Of a stretch of 64,000 bases of DNA, positions 9,288-53,483 are shown piece after piece. This stretch comes from Saccostrea echinata (taxonomy: Eukaryota). Location of the stretch: NCBI RefSeq assembly GCF_033153115.1, contig NW_026889800.1, positions 6,510,001-6,574,000 on the forward strand, in the 5' to 3' direction. The position numbers were made by a program, and so were the translations under genes. The stretch's first letter is position 1. Every line of letters begins with the position of its first letter. The notes beneath the pieces are model-generated. The model was not told the DNA's origin and made no database searches. It worked only from the letters and a program-made list of their open reading frames with translations.

Positions 9288-10373
9288 AACAAGAGGCCCA
9301 GTGGCCACATCGCTCACCTGAGCACTATGGCTAGGAAAAAGCAGAAATCATTTCAATCTTGAAAGGTTGAAAAGTTTAAATATAAAAGTGGTTGGGGGGG
9401 GGGTGTCAGGAATTGAACAAATTTGAATCTACATTATCTGAGGATGCTTCCATTTAAATATGACCAATCATGGCTTTGCTGTTCTCGAGTAGAAGATTTT
9501 TAAAGATTTAACCTATGTATTCCTATGTAAAACTTTGATCACCCATTGTGGCCCCACCCGATCCCCAGGGGTCATGTTTGAACAAACTTGAGTGTACACT
9601 ATCTAAGAATGCTTCCATATAAATATGACCAATCATGGCTTTGCTATTCTTAACAAATTGTTTTTTTTAAAGATTTTTACTATGTGTTCCAATGTAAAAC
9701 TTTGATCGCCCATTGTGGCCCCACCCTACCCCCGGGGGTCATGATTCGAACAAATTTGTATGTACACTATCTGAGGATGCTACCATATAAATATGACCAA
9801 TCATGGCTTTGCTGTTCTTGAGAAGAAGATTTTTACTATGTGTTCCTATGTAAAACTTTGATCGCCCATTGTGGCCCCACCCTACCCCCGGGGGTCATGA
9901 TTTGAACAAACTTGAATCTACACTACCTGAGGATGCTTCCAAGTAAATATGACCAATCATGGCTTTGCTGTTCTTGAGAAGAAGATTTTTGAAGATTTTT
10001 CCTATATATTCCTATGTAAAACTTTGATCTCCCATTGTGGCCCCACCCGACCCCCGGGGGTCATGATTTGAACAAACTTGAATGTACACTATCTGAGGAT
10101 GCTACCATATAAATATGACCAATTATGGCTTTGCTGTTCTTGAGAAGAAGATTTTTAAAGATTTTTCCTGTATATTTCCTATGTAAAACTTCGATCGCCC
10201 ATTGCGGCCCCACCCTAGCCCCGGGGGTCATGATTTGAACAAACTTGAATCTACACTACCTGAGGATGCTTCCACATAAATTTCATGTTTTCAAGCACAG
10301 TGGTTCTTGAGAAGAAGATTTTTTAATGATGCCATTAATTTTTCACGAATTCTTAATTATCTCCCCTTGGAAG

Positions 10374-10423
<50 letters not shown>

Positions 10424-10426
10424 ACT

Positions 10427-10481
<55 letters not shown>

Positions 10482-26124: not shown

Positions 26125-28756
26125 ATGGATAAAAACAGAAAAATAATCATCAACAATAACAAAGACGAACTAAAGATTGTTTCAAATTGGGGTCAGGTCA
26201 AACGGAACGTCAAACTCTCAGACGTGGTGGACCCACTGATAGAGAAAGGACTCATCACGCCCGACCAATGGATGGACATCAAAAATCGACCAATCAGCGA
26301 GCCAGAAAAGATGGAGGAATTCATGTATATACTTCTGAAACAGAAGTCAGGAGCTCTGGGGATTTTTCTGAAAGCATTAAGAAACTCCGGTTTTCATCAT
26401 GTTGCCGACGAATTAGAAGGGATTCCTCATAAAGATGGTCTGTATGGAGAATTTTCTTCCATTACTTTTAAATGGAATTCAGTTCAAATTTTATTTAGAT
26501 TTCAAATATTACTAACCATAACTTACTTCCGCAAGTAAAGGCTTTTATACAGTCAAATGAGGGACATACGCAACGTAGTTTTGAGCTTTTTTCCCCTAAT
26601 CTCCTGAAATTGAAGAGGTCCAATTGCGTGTGACTCCTTTGATGCTGTGGACCTTTTCTAAAGCAAATTTTGAAGAAATACCGATTAAAGCTGTATGTTT
26701 GGCCATTCTTTGTGAATTTTTCATTGAACGTTGATAGTACAATGACTTTTTTTAGTATCTTGAAGAATTATGTTGCATATGACCTTAACCCCAAAATATA
26801 CCATTAACAAATTTATTAAAGAAATTATATTTTGATTTTTAAAAAGGAAAAATAAAAATTGATACTTGTACAATAAACTAGACAAACCGAGATCCAACAT
26901 TGTAGATAAACAAACATTTCTATTTTGGGGAAATCATCCACTGCCTTGACTAATTTAAATGCATTGTCCTGATTCTTTTTGTTAAATAAAGCAACAAAAC
27001 AAAATGAATTTCAAAAATATTTAACCATATGATACCATTTTAAAGTTCATCAATGATATGGACATTGGTATCGATTGATGTTAATTTTACCTCCTTGACT
27101 TATGTTTTCTTTGCTTTAATGAATAAGTAATTCAAAGTCTATCAATAAGGTTGATATACTGGTTAAGAATTTATGTTGGTCTCATTTCCCTCTCCTATTT
27201 TTTCATTAAAGGTTGTGATCATTCGAGGACACACCCCAGGGTAAGTAGCTTACTTAAAATTTTAATAACTCTCAAATTTTATAAAAGTTGTTATGTAGAG
27301 TTAACAAATCGCAAAGATTAAGTATAATATCGATTCTTCACATGCTATTCTATTTGAAATACACATGTACTATATTAAAACATTTATGAAATAATTCAAT
27401 GATTTTTTATTCTATAGCGATGTATGATTCTATAACATAAATTTCCACTGTCAAGTGCATATGTGAAAGTAATTTAATTTCTGCGTAGGTTCCTGATGTT
27501 TGCACAACAGAGACGAATAAAGAAGGGAAAAGTGGGGGCCAAGGTTCTGCCTCATCTTCGAAAAGTACCGACACAGTGCGCCAGGAGGATCTCCACAAAA
27601 TGAAAGAGGAAATAAAAGACGAATTGCGCAACATTCGTGAAAATTTGGCATCTGAAAGAAAACAAGACAGAGACCAATTGTTGTTGCTTCAGCGAGAACA
27701 TAAACATTTACAAAATGATTTCGAAAGACTTCGACAACAGAAAAGTGAACTGTCATCGCGTTTGGATGATCTGATGAGTTCTGTTGACAGTTTAAAGAGC
27801 AAACTGGAAGAAAAAGAACGTGAATATCAGGAGCTGAAAAGAATAAATAACGGACTGAGAGAAGATTTGATGAGACAAAATAAGAGTAACTCCAGATCCA
27901 TACAGAAAAAGGACAAAGAGAAAGAGGAAATGGAGAAAAGGTTAGAGAAGAAGGAGGATGAATATAAATTATTACAAGCCATGATGGAGACCTTAAAAAG
28001 TGACCACGAGGAGAGGCTACACAGACTTAAAGTCGTAAACAAAGAAAAGGTAAGGTTAGACGGGGAGTACAAAAACGTTCTGTTGGAGAAAAAAGAACTG
28101 GAATCTAAGTACCAAGCCCTAAACCAGCAGGTAAAGGAAGTACAAGTGAAGCATACAAAGGAAGTGACGCAACTCCAAGGTGACGTCAAGGATCGTATGT
28201 TGAGGATCGAGGAGCTAGAGAGAGACAAAAACGAACTATCACAACAACTAAGCGAGTCCGAAAAAGAAAACGAAGAACTAAAAAAGGAGAACAAGAAACT
28301 AGAACAGGATTTACGCCGCACTGAAGGGGATAAGGAAATTCTGCAAACGAGGCTTCGTCAGTCCGACCTTCAAAAGTATACAGTCCCTCCGTTCTCTTCG
28401 GTGGCTAGGCATCCAAATTATCCTCCCCAGACAAGAGCCCCGCCAAAGCCTCAATGGAGGTATGTTTCTTTTCACAACTTGTCTTTCATTTATGATTACC
28501 GAGTTTTGAAGTTTAAGACCTCTTTTGATATACTACTGTAGAATGTTTCCTATATATACTCAGTATACTTTTCATCGCAATATAACAGACAACTGCCTTA
28601 GATTAATATTCATAGCATTAGTGTTCAGCATTTTTCTGAGAGTGTACTATTTGAAGCAAATATATATGTGCAATGTAAAAAGTTTTAATAATACATTTTA
28701 CACGATTTAATTTTCAAACATTTTGCAGGTTGGGAGCACGTGGCAAACATCACTAA
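26125..28756 (+). CDS. CARD (death-fold) plus long coiled-coil protein, 446 aa (exons 26125-26437, 27212-27240, 27489-28459, 28729-28756)
   Basis: N-terminal VVDPLIEKGLIT...KMEEFMYILLKQKSGALGIFLKALRNSGFHHVADEL fits the CARD pattern; ~260 aa of E/K/L heptads; Pro-rich tail; junction phases 1,0,2 are consistent. Confidence 0.85.
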
Positions 28757-31905: not shown

Positions 31906-37488
<5,583 letters not shown>

Positions 37489-40400: not shown

Positions 40401-40759
40401 TAGATTTTATGCTTTTCAAACTAATCATAAAATGTAAGGTCTTTCTAAATGCATATCATTGTGTATGTATTTCTTATATGACCACGCTAGTGAAATATTT
40501 CTCTAAACAGTCTGAACAATTCAATTTTATAAATTAAACTGAAACATCAAGACAGCAAAGGGAAGGATATTTATATTACTCAAACATTAATAAAGAAATG
40601 TCAACATTATCTGGGGGAAAAAAAAAGATTTTCAACCCTTCTTTCTAATTGTTCATTAACAAAAACAAGCCTGAATCAAATGAAGTCAAGTGGCCAAAAA
40701 AGCCGACTCTCATTCAGATCACCCATCATTATAATTCCTCTTGCTTGCTGACGTTGGTA

Positions 40760-43700
40760 TCATCCATCATCAAACTCCTCTTCATCGCTAAAGTAAGCAT
40801 CTTTCTTGTATTTCTTACGCTTTGGTTCGTCGTCTTCCGTGACGGAGGAGGAGCCAGAAGCAGCATACCGCAGTGATTCCCGCTCTATCTGTTGTTGCTG
40901 CGTAAAGGGGGATAACTAGAATCATTACACACGTATTGAAATGTTGCTGCAGATTTTGAAGGAGAAAATTAGTTTGATACACATACTGAAATAATGCTGC
41001 AGATAATGATAATCACAATACACACTTTATCAATTTTCTGAAAATATGTTTTTGCTGCAGATCAAAGGGGGATAACTCTGATAATTACTTTGCAAGCTTG
41101 TATAAAAATCAAATAAAGAAGAAAACTAACATGGGGAAAAACGCCATATATGTACTTGATATTTAATGGATACTGATATTGCACATGTTCCTGATATTTT
41201 ATGGATGGTAAGTAAATGTGTACTAATATCTAGTAGCTGCTGAAAGTAGGTACAGTACATGTGTACCTGATATTTAATGGCTACTGACAGTTAGTACATG
41301 TGTACCTGATATTTAATGGCTACTGACAGTTAGTACATGTGTACCTGATTATTATGGCTACTGACAGTAAGTACATGTGTACCTGATATTAATGGCTACT
41401 GACAGTTAGTACATGTGTACCTGATATTTAATGGCTACTAACAGTTAGTACATGTGTACTTGATTATTATGGCTACTGACAGTAAGTACATGTGTACCTG
41501 ATACTTAATAGCTACTGACAGTAAGTACATGTGTACCTGATATTTAATGGCTACTGACAGTAAGTACATGTGTACCTGATACTTAATAGCTGCTGACAGT
41601 TAGTACATGTGTACCTGATACTTAATAGCTACTGACAGTAGTACATGTGTACCTGATACTTAATGGCTACTGACAGTAAGTACATGTGTACCTGATACTT
41701 AATGGCTACTGACAGTTAGTACATGTGTACCTGATTATTATGGCTACTGACAGTAAGTACATGTGTACCTGATATTTAATGGCTGCTGACAGTAAGTATG
41801 TGTGTACCTGATATTTAATGGCTGCTTACAGTTAGTACATGTGTACCTGATATTTAATGGCTGCTGACAGTAAGTATATATATGTGTACCTGATATTTAA
41901 TGGCTGCTGACAGACTTTCCAGGGCAGGATCTTCGACCTCTTCATCACTGTCTTGCTCTTCTTCACTACAAATAAAGAAATCCTCCTTAGTATCCTTCTC
42001 TTACCTATGGAACTATTTTATTTCATCGTCAGTTTGTCTTGCTGGCTAGCTTTCCTGTTTTTGAATTCAGAAAATTACTCTGCAATAGAGCACAATACCA
42101 CCGATAAGAATAGATCATTAGGGTCAATCTCCATACAAGTTCGAGTAAATGTAGGCCTTGATAGGAATTCTCTCAAAGTGATTGTTTCAGTATGCACATG
42201 CATGCATCTTGATAATGGTAAAGTTTCATGTGATATATATTTTTAAACTTCTAGAAACAAAAATTAAGAACCAGTTGTGATATTGATCATGTGTGATATA
42301 TGCATTGATAACTGCAGTAGTACATATAAATATGTCACACCTACAATTGTACAGGTGTAATATTTAAACTAATATTTACACCTTTACATATTAAATAAGC
42401 AGCTGCATTGATGTATGCCATGTCCATTGGTTGTGATAAAACCTGTACATATATGTATGTGGTATGTGTATTGATTACTATATTTGTACACAGGTGATAC
42501 TGTAAACTAACATCATACACATGTGAGATTTGTGAACAACTCAAGCTAGGAACACTGTGAACCAGTAACTTGCAATGCCATGTTTTACAAATCATAAGGG
42601 CTCAATAGTTAATTTTAATTGCCCTGGACTGCTTTTCTGTTGGTGATTCATGAATACAAAATGTCACACATATAAAAGTTGCTTTCTAGTATTTGTCTAT
42701 GGTATAAGTTGTATCCATATTAGCTGATTATGGAATGCATTGTTTACAACACCTATTCATGTTATACCGACCTGTATTCCTCTTCTTTTTGTTTTTTTCT
42801 CTTTCTTTCTTTCTTTGGAGGTGGATCCCTTTCTCCAAGGAGATTTTTTGGACATTTATAACTCAGATGACCTTCTTCCTATAAAATGATTACCAATTCG
42901 AAAATCTCCATATGTATAAAATGTATAAAATCCTTCCTTTTTGTAATAATTATACTTTTAAAAAATCATACTCTCACATACATGTAAATGTTTATTATAA
43001 GCATTACATATTTTTTTCATAAGAAAAAAATTAGAAACAAAAACATCATGAACTACTAACATTACTTATAAGCATTTACCTGTCATTGATAAGTGTATAT
43101 ACTTACAACACTCATTATAACTGGATTGTCTGTCCGTGGTAAAGTTTACTGAGAATCTGGATTTGTCAATAGTAAGTTTACTTAGAATCTGGATTTGTCA
43201 ATAGTAAGTTTACTTAGTCCCTAGATTTTGTCAACGGGAAGTTTACAAAGTATTTGGATTTGTCACTAAGTTTTCTTACACCACACTTATAGTATCTGGA
43301 TTTGTCAGTGGTGAGTTTACATAGTATCTGGATTTGTCGATGCTTTGTTTACATAGTATCTGGATTTGTCAATGGTGAGTTTACAGTGTCTGGATTTGTC
43401 AATAGTGAGTTTACAGTGTCTGGATTTGTCAATTGTGAGTTTACATTGTAGGTAAATTTGTCAATGGTGAGTTTAAATAGAATCTGGATTTGTCACTTGT
43501 GAGTTTATACAGCATCTGGATTTGTCAATGGTGAGTTTACAAAGTGTCTGGATTTGTCAATGGTGAGTTTACATAGAATCTCAATTTGTCAATTATGAAT
43601 TTACATAGTATGTAAATTTGTCAATGGTGAGTTTAAATAGAATCTGGATTTGTCAATGGTGAGTTTACATAGTGTCTGGATTTGTAATGGTGAGTTTACA

Positions 43701-46700
43701 TAGTATCTGGATTTGTCAATGGTGAGTTTACATAGAATCTAAATTTGTCAATGGTGAATTTACATAGTATGTAAATTTGTCAATGGTGAGTATAAATAGT
43801 ATCTGGATTTGTCAATGTTGAGTTTACTTAGTGTCTGAATTTGCCAATGGTGAGTTTATATAGAATCTGGATTTTTCAATGGTGAGTTTACATAGTGTCT
43901 GGATTTGTCAATGTTGAGTTTACATAGTATCTGGATTTGTCAATGGTGAGTTTACATAGTATCTGGATTTGTCAATGGTGAGTTTACATAGATTAGTATG
44001 TAAATTTGTCAATGGCGAGTTTAAATAGAATCTGGATTTGTCAATGGTGAGTTTATACAGTATCTGGATTTGTTAATGGTGAGTTTACATAGTGTCTGGA
44101 TTTTTCAATTGTGAGTTTACATTAGAATCTTGATTTGTGATGGGGGAGTTTACATATCTGGATTTATCAATGATAAGTTTACATAATACATGAGTTTACA
44201 TAATATCTGGATTTGTCAATGGCAAGTTTACTTACACCACATTCATAACATCTGGATTTGTCAGGGTAATCCTTTCTCTTTATAAACTCTGTAGTTCTAC
44301 CATTATCTTTTGCAATGTTGCATTTTATTGTTCTGCCAAACATCTGTATAAAATAAAATTCAAATAACAAGAGGCCCATGGGCCACAATGCTTGTCAAGT
44401 AGCCATGGTTCTTCATCAGCACATTCTTTTTCCAATATATTCTTATATAAAACTTTGATCACGTATTATGGCCCCACCATACCTTCAGGGGTCTTGATTC
44501 AATCTACACTGCCTGAGGACACTTCCATATCATGGCTTTGTTCCTGGGAAAATGATTTTTAAACACTCCTCCTATATATTCCTGAGTTAAACTTTGACCT
44601 CCCAATTCTGTCCCACCTACACCCATGGGTCCTGATTTGACTGCAATCTACACTAACCGAGGATGAATCCTTATAAATATGGCTGATCATGGCTTTGCTG
44701 TTCTTGAGAAGAAGATTTTTATATTTCATGTATATTCCTATGTAAAACTTCCATCCTCTGTTGCATGATTTAAACAAATTTGAATCTACACTACCTGAGG
44801 ATGCTTCTGTATAAATATGACTAATTATGGCTTTGTTGTTCTTGAAAAGAATATTTTTTAAGATATTTCCTTTATATTCCTATGTTAATCTTTGACCCCC
44901 AGTCCTACCCTTAGTGGAACACGATCATGAACAAACTTGAATCTACAGTATGTAATGAAGCTTTCACGTAAGTTTCTTTTTTTCTGGCCCAGTGGTTCTT
45001 AAGAAAAAAATTTTAAAATGTTACCAAATTTTCACAAATTCTTAATTATCTCCTCTTGAAAAAAGGACATGGCACATTTTGTGAACAAAATCAAATCCCT
45101 ATCCACCCAAGAATGCTTTGTACCAAGTTTGGTTGAAATTTGGCCCAGTGATTCTTGAGAAGAAATCGAATATGTTAAGTTTCCAGACAACACACAAGAG
45201 ACAGACAGAAGGATGCCAGATACTTTTGATAAGAAAAGCTCACCTGAGCCTTCAACTCAAGTGAAAAATCCTCCAATATTAGAATTTATGTTTAAGACAT
45301 CTGTTTACAGTGTTATTGGGAAAGTTCAAAAATTTTAGATAACTGTTTCTCCTCCATCCTTACACAGTGTTACAAAATCACATGACAATATACATAAATA
45401 CAAAATATTATTCTTGAGTATTCTAATACTGTACTAAATGACTTTGATGAAAAATATACCACTCAGGTCCTTTTAAATGGGAGAAACTGAAACATTATTC
45501 CCAGAAATGTAGGCTGTTACTTTGGTTACATGGTTAGATCATTTAGAGTAATGTATGCAAACTGTAAGGATGAATAAATACCTCAGTTTTGTTAAGGGCA
45601 CGTACAGCTTTAAAGGCTGAGTCTCTGTCTATAAATAAAATGAATGCTACTCCTTTACTTCTTCGCTCATTGTCCTTTAAAACTGTAACTCTGAAAGACC
45701 AATCAAAATATAGAACATTAAAACTGTAACTCTAAAAGACCAATCAAAATATAGAACATTAAAACTGTTACTCTAAAAGACCAATCAAAATATAGAACAT
45801 TATAAACTGTTACTCTAAAAGACCAATCAAAATATAAAATATTAAAACTGTTACTCTAAAAGACCAATCAAAATATAGAACATTAAAACTGTAACTCTAA
45901 AAGACCAATCAAAATATAGAACATTAAAACTGTAACTCTAAAAGACCAATCAAAATATAGAACATTAAAACTGTAACTCTAAAAGACCAATCAAAATATA
46001 GAACATTAAAACTGTAACTCTAAAAGACCAATCAAAATATAGAACATTAAAACTGTAACTCTAAAAGACCAATCAAAATATAGAACATTAAAACTGTAAC
46101 TCTAAAAAACCAATCAAAATATAGAACATTAAAACTGTAACTCTAAAAGACCAATCAAAATATAGAACATTAAAACCGTAACTCTAAAAGACCAATCAAA
46201 ATATAGAACATTAAAACTGTAACTCTAAAAGACCAATCAAAATATAGAACATTAAAACTGTAACTCTAAAAGACCAATCAAAATATAGAACATTAAAACC
46301 GTAACTCTAAAAGACCAATCAAAATATAAAACATTAAAACTGTAATTCTAAAAGACAAATCAATATATATAGAACATTAAAACTGTAACTCTAAAAGACC
46401 AATCAAAATATAAAACATTAAAACTGTAATTCTAAAAGACAAATCAATATATATAGAACATTAAAACTGTAACTCTAAAAGAATTCAAAATTTGCAAATC
46501 ATTAAACATGTTTTCATTCACAACTGTAAGTTTATTTGTTTTGTCAGTGAGAGGTTTTGCCTGTATTTTAAAGAGAGAGAGCAGGGGTTAAATTTTCCTG
46601 GAATTTAATCCACTAGCCCACTAGCAAAAAATTACTTGCCCAAACCTCAAACTAACTAGCCAAAATTTTTTTTTATATAACATTTGAACGTAACACAGTT

Positions 46701-47406
46701 AAAGTTTCAATGCTATGGTGACAGAAACAAATTTAACTACAATGTAGTTCTCATTCAGAAGAAACCAGTCTATATAGAAAAGTGAAAGTAAAGAGACGAG
46801 AAATTTTTTTTCCGTTCTGCTAGTCCGATGGACTATCATTACATTTAAATAAGTTAGCCCGAGTCTTAAAATGACTAGCCCCGGGCGTTGGTTACTGACT
46901 ATATTTCAACCCCTGGAGAGGCAGGCTGTAAGTGTATGTTTGCTTATCTTGGCTGATTGGGACATCCCTGACTGCAGATAATGAGGTGTGAACTGTGAAC
47001 AATGGTCATGCATGCAATTTGAAGGTTTGAACATGTAGAAGAAGCAGATCAAAGTTACAAGTGTAAGCTGTGTAAAGGTTTTTATGTCTAACTGCGTTCT
47101 ACCAATCAGGGATCGAAATTAGCCAGAAATACTCGCAAAATGCGAGATGATTTTTAAAAAAGCGAGTAAAAATAGTAGACACTCGAAATTTTTAGCGAGT
47201 GGTGATTTTCGACCTCTATTGTCTCGTATCCGTATTTTTCCTGCAATTTGTCTTTTGCTTTTTTGAAACTTTAACACTGATTAAAGCAGCCGTTTTTATC
47301 TCTCTTTTTCTATTACCAGGCCCGTAGGAAGCAATTTCACTTTGAGGGGGCACAAACACACATTTTCAGTTGGGGGGGAACTATTAACTACCAAATTTCC
47401 TTGACA

Positions 47407-47438
<32 letters not shown>

Positions 47439-50400
47439 CGTTTTTATTGAGGGGGCACAAGCATATAGTAGCTACGTTTTCTATAGTATTCTATATATCG
47501 GCAAAATTATTGGGGGGGCATGGCCCCCCGTGCCCCCCGGTTCCTACGGCTATGATTATATTCATATAAGAACATCAGAATCAAACAAACGCTTTAAAGG
47601 TCACAGAAATAAGATGAAGCCTTAAAAAAATCAAGTTTGTTTCCTGTAACCCGACCCATTCAAATTGACCCCAGGTAGATTTTTTTTCTGCCAAATCTCA
47701 ATCAGCTGATTCAATTCATTCATTTTTTTTTAAATTCTAGCTTTATTTGAGATATAAATTATGTCAACCTAGTCAACATTTACCTTAAGGAGGTTCGATC
47801 CTGAGCTTTTGAGCAGATTTTGGTCTGGACCTTTATTTATTAAACTCTGCAACATTTTTACAATGCAAATTGAACTATATCCAATGAAAAAACCGCGATT
47901 AAATTCCATTCAAATAAGGTTAAGCCAGGAGCTATACTTTGTGGCAGAATTAAGGTTTTTTAGGAGAAAATGATCAATTTTTCCCTTTTGAAATATATAC
48001 AGTATTGTTAAATTTAGATTCCTATTTTTCCATGCTGGTTGCACACAGAGCTGTTTTTTGCAGTGCATGAAATGTTTTATGCTGGTTCTGAAATATATAT
48101 TAAATAATTTCTTATGAATTCTTTCATTATATTGTGACAAATATAGTAAATATATTCTGAAAGTCCAGGAAAAAAATTAGCCAATTTTAACATAAAATTA
48201 ACACTTTTTTAGAAAAATCAAAAAATTTACATCATGATAGACCCCACTTTTGTTTTCTTTTCTGAATATACAAGATAACTTTGATCAATCTGCCTAAATT
48301 CAGCAAAAGTTTAAGATTTTAAAATAATTTTCTTGCTTGTTAAATTTTTAATGCAAGAAATATCACATTTTTTGAGTGCAGAAAGGTCAAATAATTGATT
48401 ATGCGAAGCAATTTGAAACTTTTTTTAGTCACAATTTTAAAGTGTCTTTTTTTAAATAGACTAATAGTTTATTTTGTCCCATGATTTATTTGGATAAAAA
48501 TATTGGAGGGAAAACATTGAAGATGTGATTTTTGATTAAGACACCAATTTCAGTGCAAATTTTGTCCTGTAATCGATTGTAATCGATTACTTTGGAAGAT
48601 GTAATCGATTAATAATCGAGTACTTTTAAGTTTTTATCCCTTCAAATATCAAAGCAATATTTAAATGGTAAATGTTGATGTTATCCACTGAAGTTTGAAT
48701 GTGTTCCTGCAGTTTCAGTGCAGATTCTTTTAAGGTTTTATTCTGGCTAACATTCTCACTAAATGCCTAATTGAAGGATTCTCTACCATAGAAAGTGGAG
48801 ACATGATTCCTACAATAAAATATGCCACGGAATTAATTATTCCTTTCAACCTTGGATCTGAACCTCCATACTTATTGACTTGTTGCAAAAATTACTTAAT
48901 ATTTTATTTTGAATTACTTCATTAGAAGTATTTGGGCTGCCCATATGTTGACAGTACACATTAAACATTCCTGTACATGTCTCTTGCAAAAAAAAAAAGA
49001 AGTAAATTAGAACTCTTAGTAATAAACTTGTAAATTAAATGTACGTGTCTTCAAGTAATTAAACTAATAGCACAATTTCATTCTGTATTGAAATAAGTGT
49101 TTTGAGAGCTATTAATTGTTTTAGTAATATTGTTTGTCTTCAATGGAACTATCAATTATAAAAGTTAAACACTAGGTAGTTCACAGTTTACACCTTATTA
49201 TCTGCAAATAGGGATGTCTCAGTCAATTAATTAGTCAAAATAAGCAAACACAGTGACACTTACTCCCTCTCTTACAGACACTTATAACCTGTCACTGATA
49301 TGAAAGCAACCTTACAATTTTGAACGAAAACATGAGAATGATTTTGCAAATTTTAAAGTTACTAAAACTCAAGTTTGAAGTTGTTTAAACATTTTCAGAT
49401 ATGAAAAGTATTTCCATCTTCTTTTTTTCTGAGTACAATGTAGTTTATTTACCAAATTATTTATATTAAATACAGCACTTAAATCTGTTTTTGCTATTTA
49501 TAATTTTCTATTACAAGACAAAGTTTTTCAACATCTTAAATATGAAAAAGGACATGCAGCAAGAGGACAGTGGGTCAAATGTAAAATGCACACAAAAAAT
49601 CTATATATTTTATTAATAAATGGTTGAAATACACTCCTGAATTATTTAATACTAGACCAGAAGGTCTATAATGCAAATTTTTTTGAGAACATTATTAAAC
49701 TTATGATAATAAAAGTTAGGAAATCCAAACATTACACTAGGTGGTTTAAATTTGATATTAATGTGTGACTGACTAGAAATAATTCTCCAAAATAACATCC
49801 ATTTATGTATTAAATAATCGAAAGTAATCGAAAAAGTAATTATAATTACATTGAAAATTTTAGCCGTAATCGATTAAATTACGATTACAAGTAATCGAAA
49901 ATCTCTTCGATTACAGATTACTGTTGATTACTTGACAAAAAGTAATCATTACAATTGATTACGATTACTCGATTACGATTACCCCATCCCTGGTGCAAAA
50001 AGGTCATATTAAATGTACTGTAGCACCAAAAGAAGCATATTGACCCCCATTTTTTGTTTTGATTTTTAATTAAGCTATGTGTTTAGAAACTAAAAATATA
50101 CTTGACAAAAAAAGTTTAAGACTTTAAATATCAGGATCCAACCTCATTAAATAAAAAGAGTAATCATTATTATAACATCAAGCTTTTCTCCGACAACTTT
50201 TTGAAGTTCGTTTTCTGTCGCTAAAAATCCATGTTGTGTGCCTGCTGTAAATATCACACCAAGTCATTTCAGTCCGGGATGTTTGACCCCTTTATTCATT
50301 GACACAAAGAAAATTCAGACCTACCCACCCTTGATTTTTGGGAATGTTACAGGAAACAAATATAATTTTTTTTTAGGTCAGATTACCCTTTTTAAACAAA

Positions 50401-51792
50401 TGAAAAAGGCATTTAATCATTCTTTTAATTTTAGCTTGTAGATCTTCATTTTAGCCTGTGGATTTTATATGTACAGGCTAAAATTAGCCTGTGGATTTAA
50501 AAGTTAATTTCGATTCATGCCATTATATATTTTTTTGTATAACTGCCTGAAGAGCCTAACATGGCGAAAGCGCTTGCAGTAAATATTTTGTGATTTTTTT
50601 TTTCCATTTTTATTTTTAATACACCCAACAAAACTGTACTGGTTCTTCTTTTTGTTTTTGAAATTATATATATACAACATACAATATGTATATGGCGCTA
50701 AAGGTCTTTAGAGAGCGAAAGGCCTCTGTGCAAATCGTCAATAAAGTGAAGGGTCTCATTATCGTAAAAATGACATGACACTAACTATAACAATCTCTTC
50801 CTTTGAGGTACTGTATGTTACTGTATGTCTATCATTTTCAATTCAACAAAACTGGGAAAAGTGTGAGGAACGAGGGAACGACTTTACTTTACCGGTCCCC
50901 AGAAAAACGCGCTAAAATATAGTGTCGCCGTAGGCGACTTCAATATATATGAGATCGCGTGAGCGATCGAAAAAAATAAAAAATATGAGGTTTTAAGCCT
51001 TTTTGACCCCAAATTCGAATTCTACGGTTAAAAGTTTAGTTTAAAACTTCGTTTATAAACGAAGTTTTTAACCTCGTTTTCTGAAAAAAAGTAATAAATG
51101 TTGTTTATTCAGTGAAAAGGAGACAAAAAATAATTGTGAACGAAGCGCGTGCGGCGCATGCTTAGTGCCGTTTCTTTCGTACTTAGCCATTTTTTTCATG
51201 TAAACAAACCAACGAGATGTCGTTGAAGCTGAATTAAGATCTTGCAAAAAATACAGATGCAACTGAATTTCTTAATTAATCTAAAAGAACAAGACACTAA
51301 CCCTAATCTCTCGGATGGTATGCGAGGACTAACCCTAATCTCTCGGATGGTATGCGAGGACTAACCCAAATCTCCCAGGCGGATGCTAGACCATGCTAGA
51401 CTAACCCATGTGCGAGGACTAACCCTAATCTCTGGGATATATGCGAGACTAACCCTAATCAGTCGAAAACTTATGCAAGGACTAACCCTAATCTTTCAGG
51501 TGGATGCAAGACTAACCCTAACCAGTCGAAAAATGTGCAAAACCAACCCTAATCAGTTGAGTGACGTAAATCTTACGTCATAGTGCAATGAGCGCGCGGA
51601 TCTTGCGGATCTGGGGACCGGTAAAGTAAAGTCTACCCGGAACGAGAAATCCAAGCAACATCTATAACAGAATACTCACTTGGCTACTCTCCCATATTTC
51701 TCGAAGATTTTATGGATATCATTATTTGTTAAGGAAAAAGGCAAATTGCCCACGTACACAGTACTTTTACTTGGGGCTAGTCCGCCACTCAT
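40760..51792 (-). CDS. ZCRB1: Zinc finger CCHC-type and RNA-binding motif protein 1 (U11/U12 snRNP 31K), 216 aa; exons 51792-51680, 45690-45582, 44343-44236, 42878-42772, 41965-41890, 40897-40760
   Basis: [25 protein letters not shown] (RRM), [35 protein letters not shown] zinc knuckle, [16 protein letters not shown]; all junctions GT-AG and in phase. Confidence 0.95.
41250..41913 (-). repeat. ~39-bp minisatellite duplicating the ZCRB1 exon 5 end plus donor (~16 copies)
   Basis: Unit CTGTCAGTAGCCATTAAATATCAG|GTACACATGTACTAA on the gene strand. Confidence 0.95.
43120..44265 (-). repeat. ~32-bp minisatellite derived from the ZCRB1 exon 3 end and donor region (~30+ copies)
   Basis: Unit TGACAAATCCAGATACTATGTAAACTCACCAT shares TGACAAATCCAGAT with exon codons PDKSRC. 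Confidence 0.9.
44366..45267 (+). mobile_element. Degenerate HINE / Cg170-like satellite element in ZCRB1 intron 2
   Basis: Homologous to 9288-10597 (AACAAGAGGCCC start, ~166-bp units, AGAAAAGCTCAC end). Confidence 0.8.
45679..46481 (-). repeat. 41-bp homogeneous minisatellite duplicating the ZCRB1 exon 2 acceptor (~19 copies)
   Basis: Unit AATGTTCTATATTTTGATTGGTCTTTTAG|AGTTACAGTTTT on the gene strand. Confidence 0.95.
47107..50519. mobile_element. Nested cluster of non-autonomous DNA transposons in ZCRB1 intron 1
   Basis: Paired inverted termini at ~47107/50519, ~47622/50378 and ~47788/50146; inner (TAATCGATTA)-rich element ~48570-49992. Confidence 0.6.
50875..51638. mobile_element. Non-autonomous TIR element with 8-bp TSD and an internal ~32-bp repeat containing TAACCCTA
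   Basis: TIR core GACTTTACTTTACCGGTCCCCAGA; TSD GGAACGAG at 50867-50874 and 51639-51646. Confidence 0.85.
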
Positions 51793-53483
51793 TTACTCCA
51801 AATTATGAAAACAAGAAATGAAGCTAGTTTCACTGAAATTTCAAGCAGGATGTAATCTTTCCTCTATAAAATAAAAATCTATCGGGGTTTGGAATTCCGG
51901 ACTACGACGACTCAGGAAAAAAAAATCTTTTAATGATTTGCTTTATTTGTATGCCTAAAGACCTTTCGTTGTTTCAATTCTTTTTCCTTCTTTTTTCTTT
52001 ATCAAAATGCCAAATACTTGGGATATAAAGAAATACATTAATCTGCAATCTGGAATCACGAACCCGATCCTGATCGACATGCGACACCTTGAAATCCAGT
52101 CAAAGCGCCCCCTAAGAAAACCGGCCCGGTCAAAGTGTCCCAGATTTTGGTCAAAGCGGCCTAGTCATGATTTGCTCTTTTTAGAAGCGTTGTTTTAATT
52201 TCTAAATTTTTAAGTTATTTGTGCATAAATAATTTTAGAGAGTGTTACTTTTATCTATTTGTTATGGTGTTCTGCAGGTTTCATGCATTTCACTCGGCCC
52301 AATAAATCAACATTAAGTCATTTTCTGTCTAAATATATTATTTCAAAAGATGCATTGGCAATGGAATTCAAACAAACAGAAGCACGGAAGAGGGGGGGGG
52401 GGGGTGTCTTTTACCGTGTATCGCATTGGTTCAAAGAGGGATTTAAATGTACTTTCAATAAAAAAACATGTTTAGTGTAAGTACATGTATTCAACATAGT
52501 GTGCCACTCCTGCATATACATAGCTCTGGCCCTTTGTGCGAACTCTCTTTAAAATAAAGATACATTTCCAGCACCTTCATTTTCAGTATCCAAACATATT
52601 AGAAATCATACTTATACAGCAAAATTCTTACCTCTGTTGCCCATTTTCCCTTGGTTTTTCCAAGTGGCAACATCATTTACATATATACTGACGTGTTTCT
52701 TTTCATCTTAGTTCAGTCAGAGGTTAATCAAAATTTTCCACATGCTTTATTAATATTTTTTCTATAATTTAATTGTTTGTGCATGTAGTATTTGTCATGA
52801 ATCCTGTGCGCGGATATAAGGGGTGGGGTGCCCCCCCCTTCTGGAAATTGCAGTTATTTAATGTATATACTAGTCTAGAGCACTGTAACAAAAAGTGACG
52901 ATGTTGATGTCTATATATGACTTTACTTTTCAGAACTGATCAGTTTACCTTCCGTGACTTTATGATGGCATCATTTAAAGAATTTCTAACGAAAATAAAG
53001 TGACAACATCAGTAGCAAAATGTGAGTCACTTCAGAAAAAATAGTCCAAATTAGTGTAAAAAGACATGTAGTACATAATTACATGTAGTACTACAAGTTT
53101 TGCATTTGTAGCTCTATGTCTTGCCAACTATTTTTTTCCAACAAGTTCTGCAACTAAGTTGATTCAAAAGATGTTAATCAGAAAGCACATCAGTTTGAAT
53201 GGGTTTTTTCAGTTCATTCACGCAAGTCATCTATTAGGTCTTACCAGGGAAGTACATGTATATACTGTCATCCCTGGTCTTTCACATTTCATTTTCTTTA
53301 AGTAATCGGTTATCCTCAATGTCAACTTGCACCTTTAGATCTTACACGTTCAAAATACTTTGAACATAAATCGCTCATCCAGACACACAGATTATTGGTC
53401 GCTCTTTGGGCACATTCGGGATAATTCTGCCAAGGAGACATTAAATTCCCGATGGATATATTCATCAAAGACGCTCTTAACCC

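What the first reader, a model, noticed from the sequence alone, without database searches (positions are those of the whole stretch)
45679..46481. ~19 tandem 3' splice sites where only the functional one is CAG
Seen: the upstream units read TTGGTCTTTTAG|AGTTACAG while the exon-proximal copy reads GGTCTTTCAG|. Using the nearest decoy shifts the frame, and using further ones meets a TAA within two units. Units are nearly identical, suggesting recent expansion or homogenisation that spares the single T/C difference. Inference: one nucleotide plus exon definition discriminates the true acceptor, and leakage would make poison transcripts.
Basis: partly seen in the sequence, partly recalled or inferred. 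Interest (0 to 1): 0.7.

Follow-up and report, generated by a model that had tools for sequence, protein, structure and literature searches.

The report
Oyster ZCRB1 splice-acceptor "mirage" minisatellite
The end of an intron and the first 14 bases of the next exon of an oyster splicing-factor gene (ZCRB1) are repeated 19 extra times head to tail, yet the assembled transcripts use only the last copy, so this is likely a tolerated repeat of a kind already known from lancelets and humans, in which position probably counts for more than the single C/T difference.

Summary
The array is real: 19.5 copies of a 41-bp unit (45677-46482, minus strand) holding 27 nt of intron end and 14 nt of coding exon 2 of ZCRB1 (U11/U12-31K) in an oyster, probably Saccostrea. 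Nineteen copies end TAG; the last ends CAG. Spliced contigs from two runs of one sample join exon 1 to that CAG, and every decoy would give an early stop. This is a 'mirage' minisatellite (amphioxus; human F7 and CBS are analogues), and this scan has noted the kind before in this genome and others. The C adds strength (about 1.9 bits) but is probably not the switch. TAG is 123 of 384 kinase-gene acceptors here and serves two other ZCRB1 exons; one TAG decoy scores as high as the used site. A kinase-like gene has five upstream TAG decoys, four matching its inferred TAG acceptor over the last 14 intron bases. ZCRB1's exon-5 donor has 15 decoys with the same CAG|GTACAC core. Such duplications touch about 1% of splice sites and are rarer than in intron interiors. 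The C lies near the array edge, where homogenisation likely fails. No decoy junction was seen, but contigs drop rare forms. No USSE element.

The parts
45677..46482 (-). 41-bp minisatellite, 19.5 copies; unit = last 27 nt of ZCRB1 intron 1 + first 14 nt of coding exon 2 (acceptor-type mirage)
45691..45693 (-). Used 3' splice site CAG (the unique C is the G at + strand 45693); exon starts at 45690
45731..46501 (-). 19 TAG decoy acceptors (first bases after AG at 46474, 46431 ... 45772, 45731); 18 of 19 have a TTAAT branch-point-like motif at -28/-30; all lead to early stops
46461..46507 (-). Divergent edge unit 1, likely the original intron end; the TTTAA just 5' of it matches TTTAA at exon +10..+14 (microhomology bounding the duplicated segment)
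   Evidence: origin inferred
51680..51792 (-). ZCRB1 coding exon 1 (ATG to donor AA|GTGAGT), RRM start
   Evidence: joined to 45690 in contigs
45582..45690 (-). ZCRB1 coding exon 2, 109 nt, RRM core
44236..44343 (-). ZCRB1 coding exon 3
   Evidence: (its 5' end joined to exon 2)
43143..44185 (-). 32-bp minisatellite, 32 copies, derived from the exon 3 end/intron 3 start; mostly without GT, one full donor copy at 43280
42772..42878 (-). ZCRB1 coding exon 4 (TAG acceptor)
   Evidence: ungapped match to P0001
41890..41965 (-). ZCRB1 coding exon 5 (TAG acceptor)
41254..41913 (-). 39-bp donor-type mirage, 17 copies; 16 CAG|GTACAC sites, the first of which is inferred to be used
40898..41090 (-). 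Three degenerate CAG acceptor copies (41054, 40996, 40946) ahead of the exon 6 acceptor at 40897
   Evidence: seen by motif, below the automated copy threshold
40760..40897 (-). ZCRB1 coding exon 6 with stop

Best explanation
The array is a 'mirage' minisatellite, a tandem amplification of the ZCRB1 intron 1/exon 2 boundary that likely arose by slippage at a TTTAA microhomology and is likely tolerated because the spliceosome favours the copy next to the real exon, with the C probably only a helpful extra. Shown: unit anatomy, 19 TAG plus 1 CAG, use of the CAG copy in spliced contigs, stops after every decoy, an intact 216-aa product, ordinary strength of the TAG decoys, and other duplications in this genome without a C/T difference. 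Inferred: (1) the first duplication copied 27+14 nt between two TTTAA words; (2) later slippage or unequal exchange spread a T-bearing internal unit, while both edges escaped (unit 1's tract; the last 17 nt of unit 20, which include the C), so the C is probably the old base; (3) exon definition across the 109-nt exon, plus the C against the nearest few decoys, picks the last copy; (4) rare decoy use would be removed by nonsense-mediated decay and has no regulatory role.
For: Spliced join exon 1 to 45690 to exon 3 in 2 of 2 runs, no decoy junction among loose ends. Protein is 204 of 216 identical, without gaps, to S. cucullata ZCRB1. TAG is 123 of 384 kinase acceptors; consensus decoys sit at the 40th percentile, decoy 10 equals the used site. 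L184 has five upstream TAG decoys at 37-nt steps, four of them matching the inferred TAG acceptor over the last 14 intron bases, and a stop-free frame over four introns; L158 has an unchanged GTAG duplicate. ZCRB1 exon 5 has 15 decoys with the same CAG|GTACAC core, and by protein match the weakest-scoring of four exon 6 acceptor copies is used. Boundary duplications: 4 of 384 acceptors and 6 of 384 donors against 53 of 625 and 49 of 642 intron-interior AG/GT sites, so they look filtered rather than favoured. Microhomology and edge divergence. Amphioxus mirages show normal splicing and edge exclusion from homogenisation (PMC3087553); F7 pseudo-sites are functional yet unused by position (PMC1557585).
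Against: The one difference in the last 17 nt of homology falls on -3, the position that matters most after AG (about 1 in 17 by chance, my arithmetic). Two of the four kinase acceptor duplications have weaker decoys: L111 has the same TAG/CAG contrast and L076 lost the AG. The nearest decoy would make a 150-nt exon, and 41% of 263 internal kinase exons are that long or longer. ZCRB1 has more boundary-derived arrays than kinase genes. The RNA evidence is contigs from one sample, which drop rare forms; run X2 holds a 71-nt array-unit contig at depth 4.46 against 13.4 for the mRNA, source unresolved. Kinase splice sites are inferred from protein homology, not RNA, and the L184 kinase has atypical catalytic motifs.
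Confidence: 0.72

Rival explanations
1. Still a mirage, but the C/T contrast is selected: an array of 19 acceptors ahead of an essential exon is viable only because the decoys are TAG and the true site CAG, so one base does real discriminating work against the nearest decoys.
For: C gives +1.9 bits (40th to 65th percentile). The only change in the terminal 17 nt is at -3. L111 shows the same contrast and L076 lost the decoy AG. The nearest decoys give normal exon sizes.
Against: L184 and L158 have unchanged -3..-1; decoy 10 matches the used site's score; TAG is a third of acceptors. Variants inside the array both weaken and strengthen decoys. The edge effect explains a retained C without selection (inference; edge exclusion described in PMC3087553).
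Confidence: 0.2
2. The arrays are a regulatory device: decoy splice sites at several ZCRB1 boundaries tune the level of this minor-spliceosome protein through unproductive splicing or intron retention, in the spirit of USSE control of 48K and 65K.
For: ZCRB1 is U11/U12-31K, and related subunits are controlled by AS-NMD (PMC3584512). Three of the four long arrays in the gene derive from exon boundaries and arrays cover 24% of it, against 2.6% on average and 23% at most in 72 kinase loci. All decoys are poison. Array sequence is present in one run.
Against: No U12-type 5' splice site or branch motif in or near the array, and no tandem pair in the gene. No decoy junction in contigs. Units are young and homogeneous, unlike conserved AS-NMD elements. 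The enrichment shrinks to about p 0.11 (my arithmetic) when the exon 3 donor copy, which lies beyond the 600-nt span used for kinases, is left out.
Confidence: 0.06
3. The array is an assembly artefact (collapsed or inflated repeat), or the C is a consensus error.
For: Only one assembly haplotype was seen; no DNA run was listed to check it.
Against: Units carry structured variants (43-nt pair, runs of shared changes). An animal differing at 3 letters in exon 2 holds a 71-nt contig covering about 1.7 units.
Confidence: 0.02

Closest known systems
Amphioxus 'mirage' minisatellites (Adh3, troponin C, PGBD5; globin BflGb6 is acceptor type). PMC3087553, passages read; PMC3902484, one passage; the original Adh3 paper was not held
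   Same: Tandem unit spans an intron/exon boundary and duplicates the splice signal; unit length inside the 10-72 bp range given for Adh3; the terminal, authentic copy is used; internal units homogenised, edge units excluded.
   Different: A bivalve; about 20 copies against 3-6 in BflGb6; one base separates the used site from the consensus; three or four such arrays in one gene.
Human F7 intron 7 37-bp VNTR (PMC1557585; abstract and Discussion read)
   Same: Identical, functional pseudo-sites stay silent because of position; the direct analogue of the ZCRB1 exon 5 donor array.
   Different: F7 is a donor array, where the true site is transcribed first; here the decoys come first.
Human CBS 844ins68 (one passage in PMC1802585; primary papers not read)
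   Same: Duplication of a 3' splice site plus exon start in which the downstream copy is selected.
   Different: Two copies, chosen through G runs between them; the oyster unit has no run of three G and 20 copies.
USSE feedback element of U11-48K and U11/U12-65K (PMC3584512, passages)
   Same: Minor-spliceosome subunit gene; repeated splice-site sequence; unproductive splicing would lead to decay.
   Different: USSE is a conserved tandem of U12-type 5' splice sites activating an upstream U2 acceptor; here a young array of U2-type acceptors with no U12 motif.

Membership tests
Mirage minisatellite | Head-to-tail minisatellite | tested here: met
   41 bp x 19.5, 95% matches
Mirage minisatellite | Unit spans an exon-intron boundary and duplicates the splice site | tested here: met
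   27 nt intron + 14 nt exon, 20 YAG junctions; boundary fixed by spliced contigs
Mirage minisatellite | Normal mRNA uses the authentic copy | tested here: met
   Exon 1 joined to 45690 in 2 of 2 runs of one sample; minor forms not measurable in contigs
Mirage minisatellite | Concerted evolution inside, edges excluded | tested here: met
   9 of 20 units equal consensus; unit 1 differs at 12 of 41, unit 20 at -3
Mirage minisatellite | Copy-number polymorphism or somatic instability | not testable with these tools
   One locus in the assembly, no DNA run listed
USSE-type AS-NMD element | Tandem U12-type 5' splice sites | tested here: not met
   No RTATCC in the array; one RTATCCT in 40500-52300, at 40570 beyond the stop codon
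USSE-type AS-NMD element | Detectable unproductive isoform | tested here: inconclusive
   No decoy junction in contigs; a 71-nt unit contig of unknown source
USSE-type AS-NMD element | Deep conservation | not testable with these tools
   No relative genome held; metagenome scan gave two distant loci, 35-40% identity
CBS 844ins68-type duplicated acceptor | G runs between duplicated acceptors steer choice | tested here: not met
   Unit has no GGG
ZCRB1 / U11/U12-31K | N-terminal RRM plus CCHC knuckle, orthologous sequence | tested here: met
   Best PDB hit 2e5h ZCRB1; 204 of 216 identical to P0001, which has RRM_1 and zf-CCHC over cut-off

The most novel reading that the evidence does not exclude
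A minor-spliceosome gene has amplified three or four of its own splice boundaries into decoy arrays and uses them as a copy-number-tunable rheostat: the -3 C is held by selection as the discriminator, leakage to TAG decoys feeds nonsense-mediated decay, and array length sets ZCRB1 dose. More broadly, acceptor mirages may need weakened decoys while donor mirages do not (2 of 4 kinase acceptor cases weakened, 0 of 6 donor cases at the nearest copy).
Probability: 0.07. Interest if true: 0.6.

Novelty: new member of a known kind. Interest (0 to 1): 0.2.

Why it matters
As it stands it is an ordinary example of a described repeat class that touches about 1% of splice sites in the kinase genes sampled here. 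Its value is as a natural test object: 19 complete upstream acceptors differing from the used one by a single base let a minigene separate position from -3 identity in 3' splice-site choice. The kinase sample also gives a first rate for such duplications in this oyster (10 of 768 boundaries). If leakage were regulated, it would be a new feedback route for a minor-spliceosome protein.

Tried and rejected
U12/USSE motifs: none in the array. Dispersed element: rejected, pattern and flank unique in the genome. Boundary-specific mutational hotspot genome-wide: rejected, duplications are rarer at boundaries than inside introns (null sites share introns, so the Fisher p values are too small). Regional minisatellite excess: the flanking 100 kb on each side hold 7.0 and 5.0 arrays per 100 kb against 5.7 in kinase loci, so any excess is confined to the gene. 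Run search: no holder on record as RNA; two guessed-RNA runs of one sample; their spliced joins show mRNA origin. No read-level data were obtained for the exon 5/6 junction or for intronic background, so those rest on protein homology. Orthologous genomic DNA: metagenome scan gave only two distant loci, not examined further; look-alike search of earlier findings gave nothing. Papers not held: Canestro 2002, Tsai 1996; PMC2630376 gave reference-list hits only. A search requiring oyster, tandem repeat, exon-intron boundary, splice site and intron found 0 papers, and the mirage search listed no mollusc study of mirages by title; these are narrow searches of an open-access library, not proof of absence. 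No supplements were opened. Dropped rows: 12 of 137 kinase loci as duplicates; of 6 flagged acceptors, L106 (spurious exon in a repeat) and L164 (one distant weak match); of 7 flagged donors, L106.

Full report
Observation. TRF finds a 41-bp array at 45677-46482, 19.5 copies, 95% matches. On the minus strand it holds 20 acceptor-like junctions; 19 end in TAG and the last in CAG. The exact 30-nt junction pattern occurs 11 times in the 923-Mb assembly, all in this array, and the flank is single-copy. Nine of 20 units equal the consensus. Unit 20 differs only at -3, unit 1 at 12 of 41 positions, and units 2 and 4 are 43 nt.

Gene. The exon behind the array encodes an RRM piece whose best PDB match is ZCRB1, 2e5h. 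Six coding exons (51792-51680, 45690-45582, 44343-44236, 42878-42772, 41965-41890, 40897-40760) give an open 216-aa frame. It is 204 of 216 identical, without gaps, to Saccostrea cucullata ZCRB1 and 189 identical to Ostrea edulis. ZCRB1 is the 31K subunit of the U11/U12 di-snRNP (PMC3584512, passages).

Which site is used. Two runs of one sample, guessed to be RNA and held as contigs, each have a contig covering 45582-45690 whose loose ends are the end of exon 1 and the start of exon 3. So the CAG copy is used. No loose end marks a decoy junction, but contigs drop rare forms. Run X2 also has a 71-nt contig over 45690-45760 at depth 4.46 against 13.4 for the mRNA, with one letter different. Its length fits a collapsed 41-nt cycle (inference). 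The two halves of that stretch differ only at -3, so the other animal's unit may carry T or C there; the output does not say which. Pre-mRNA, genomic DNA or decoy use could each supply it.

Consequence of decoy use. All 19 decoys give a stop: 18 within 28-52 nt of the junction, including the nearest, and one at 94 nt. Eighteen of 19 decoys, like the used site, have a TTAAT branch-point-like motif at -28 or -30 with no AG before the acceptor, so each is a complete module. Seventeen of 19 also hold a second CAG 8 nt downstream.

Is the C the discriminator? I built a comparison set from this genome. Kinase exons found with PF00069 and PF07714 led to 137 fetched loci. After setting aside 12 duplicates, 116 loci gave 384 introns, called by profile continuity, phase and trained matrices. 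Acceptors: CAG 221, TAG 123, AAG 39, GAG 1 (some AAG are probably miscalls). The used site scores 9.61 (65th percentile) and the consensus decoy 7.7 (40th); decoy 10 scores 9.64. ZCRB1 exons 4 and 5 themselves use TAG. The C therefore helps by about 1.9 bits, but the decoys are normal acceptors.

Other duplications. The same copy test flagged 6 acceptors and 7 donors of 384 each. I dropped L106 (both kinds) and L164, leaving 4 and 6. Splice-like sites inside 117 long introns were duplicated in 53 of 625 and 49 of 642 cases, so boundary duplications are depleted. Among the four acceptors, L184 has five upstream TAG copies at 37-nt steps, four matching the inferred site over the last 14 intron bases; the frame is open over four introns and the three decoys tested give stops, though its catalytic motifs are atypical. 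L158 keeps an unchanged GTAG. Against my reading, L111 has a TAG decoy before a CAG and L076's decoys lost the AG. All six donor cases keep GT at the nearest copy. These sites are inferred from homology, not RNA.

Controls inside ZCRB1. A 39-bp array at 41254-41913 carries 16 CAG|GTACAC donors; the ungapped match to P0001 implies the first is used, and the next four give a stop. Three degenerate CAG copies precede exon 6, and the site implied by homology is the weakest of the four (9th percentile against 10th-34th). A 32-bp array derives from the exon 3 end. Arrays cover 24% of the gene against 2.6% on average in 72 kinase loci (maximum 23%), while the flanks are average. Given one boundary by selection, two more of nine has p 0.006. 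That used a 1200-nt donor span for ZCRB1 against 600 nt for kinases; at 600 nt only one more counts and p is about 0.11 (my arithmetic). The excess is suggestive only.

Origin (inferred). TTTAA lies just 5' of unit 1 and again at exon +10..+14, which suits a slippage duplication of 27+14 nt. Homogenised sequence runs from about -8 of unit 1 to -4 of unit 20. The C is 17 nt from the end of homology, where exchange would rarely overwrite it. It is thus probably the old base and the T a change that spread internally. The chance that the one difference in those 17 nt falls on -3 is about 1 in 17, which leaves room for selection. No outgroup DNA was available.

Known kinds. Tandem repeats spanning exon-intron boundaries are described as 'mirages' in amphioxus Adh3, troponin C, globins and PGBD5, with normal splicing and edge units excluded from homogenisation (PMC3087553, passages; PMC3902484, one passage). 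In human F7 identical pseudo-donors are functional but unused by position (PMC1557585, abstract and Discussion). In CBS 844ins68 the downstream of two identical acceptors is chosen (PMC1802585, one passage). The array meets four mirage features; instability could not be tested. It fails the USSE test. Earlier notes of this scan report the same kind in this genome and in annelid, urchin, clam and abalone genomes; I did not check those loci, and I had reached the mirage reading before seeing them.

Verdict. A real acceptor-type mirage in oyster ZCRB1, a new member of a known kind. Position is the likely main selector and the C a contributor of unproven necessity. Interest 0.2.

Noticed in passing
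window 41254-41913 (-): 39-bp donor mirage at ZCRB1 exon 5 with 16 CAG|GTACAC sites; the four nearest decoys all give the same early stop.
   Followed up: partly
window 43143-44185 (-): 32-bp array derived from the end of ZCRB1 exon 3; most units lack the GT, but one full donor copy (GGT|GTAAG) sits at 43280.
   Followed up: partly
window 40898-41090 (-): Three old, degenerate copies of the exon 6 acceptor; the site implied by homology is the weakest by matrix score and begins a CAG CAA CAA CAG run.
   Followed up: partly
window 45582-45690: Oyster ZCRB1 is one residue shorter than human and chiton in the RRM loop (KDNERRSKG); shared by the oyster proteins viewed.
   Followed up: partly
L184:3783-4012 on the gene strand (locus G000:C46:8085750-8095749, minus): 37-bp acceptor mirage with five TAG decoys in a tyrosine-kinase-like gene with atypical catalytic motifs (HMR, AGFG).
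   Followed up: partly
L155, L099, L192, L058, L162, L187 (donors); L076, L111, L158 (acceptors): Further splice-site duplications in kinase genes; donor decoys stay near-identical, while two of three acceptor decoy sets are weaker.
   Followed up: partly
window 31906-37280 (+): Gene convergent with ZCRB1 with weak TPT and EamA Pfam matches below cut-off, likely an SLC35-type transporter; no long arrays in it.
   Followed up: partly
window 26041-28538 (+): CARD domain ORF (E 2.7e-08) followed by a 350-aa ORF with weak coiled-coil-type matches.
   Followed up: partly
window 51296-51557: Degenerate 30-32-bp array containing TAACCCTAA words about 120 nt into ZCRB1 intron 1.
   Followed up: no
window 9401-10473 and about 44480-45200: 166-bp satellite array and degenerate pieces of similar sequence inside ZCRB1 intron 2, resembling the oyster Helitron-linked satellite (recalled, not tested).
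   Followed up: no
G000 C46/C19, C64/C14, C59/C30, C4/C43, C47/C142: Several kinase genes occur twice with matching exon scores on different contigs, suggesting retained haplotigs in the assembly.
   Followed up: no
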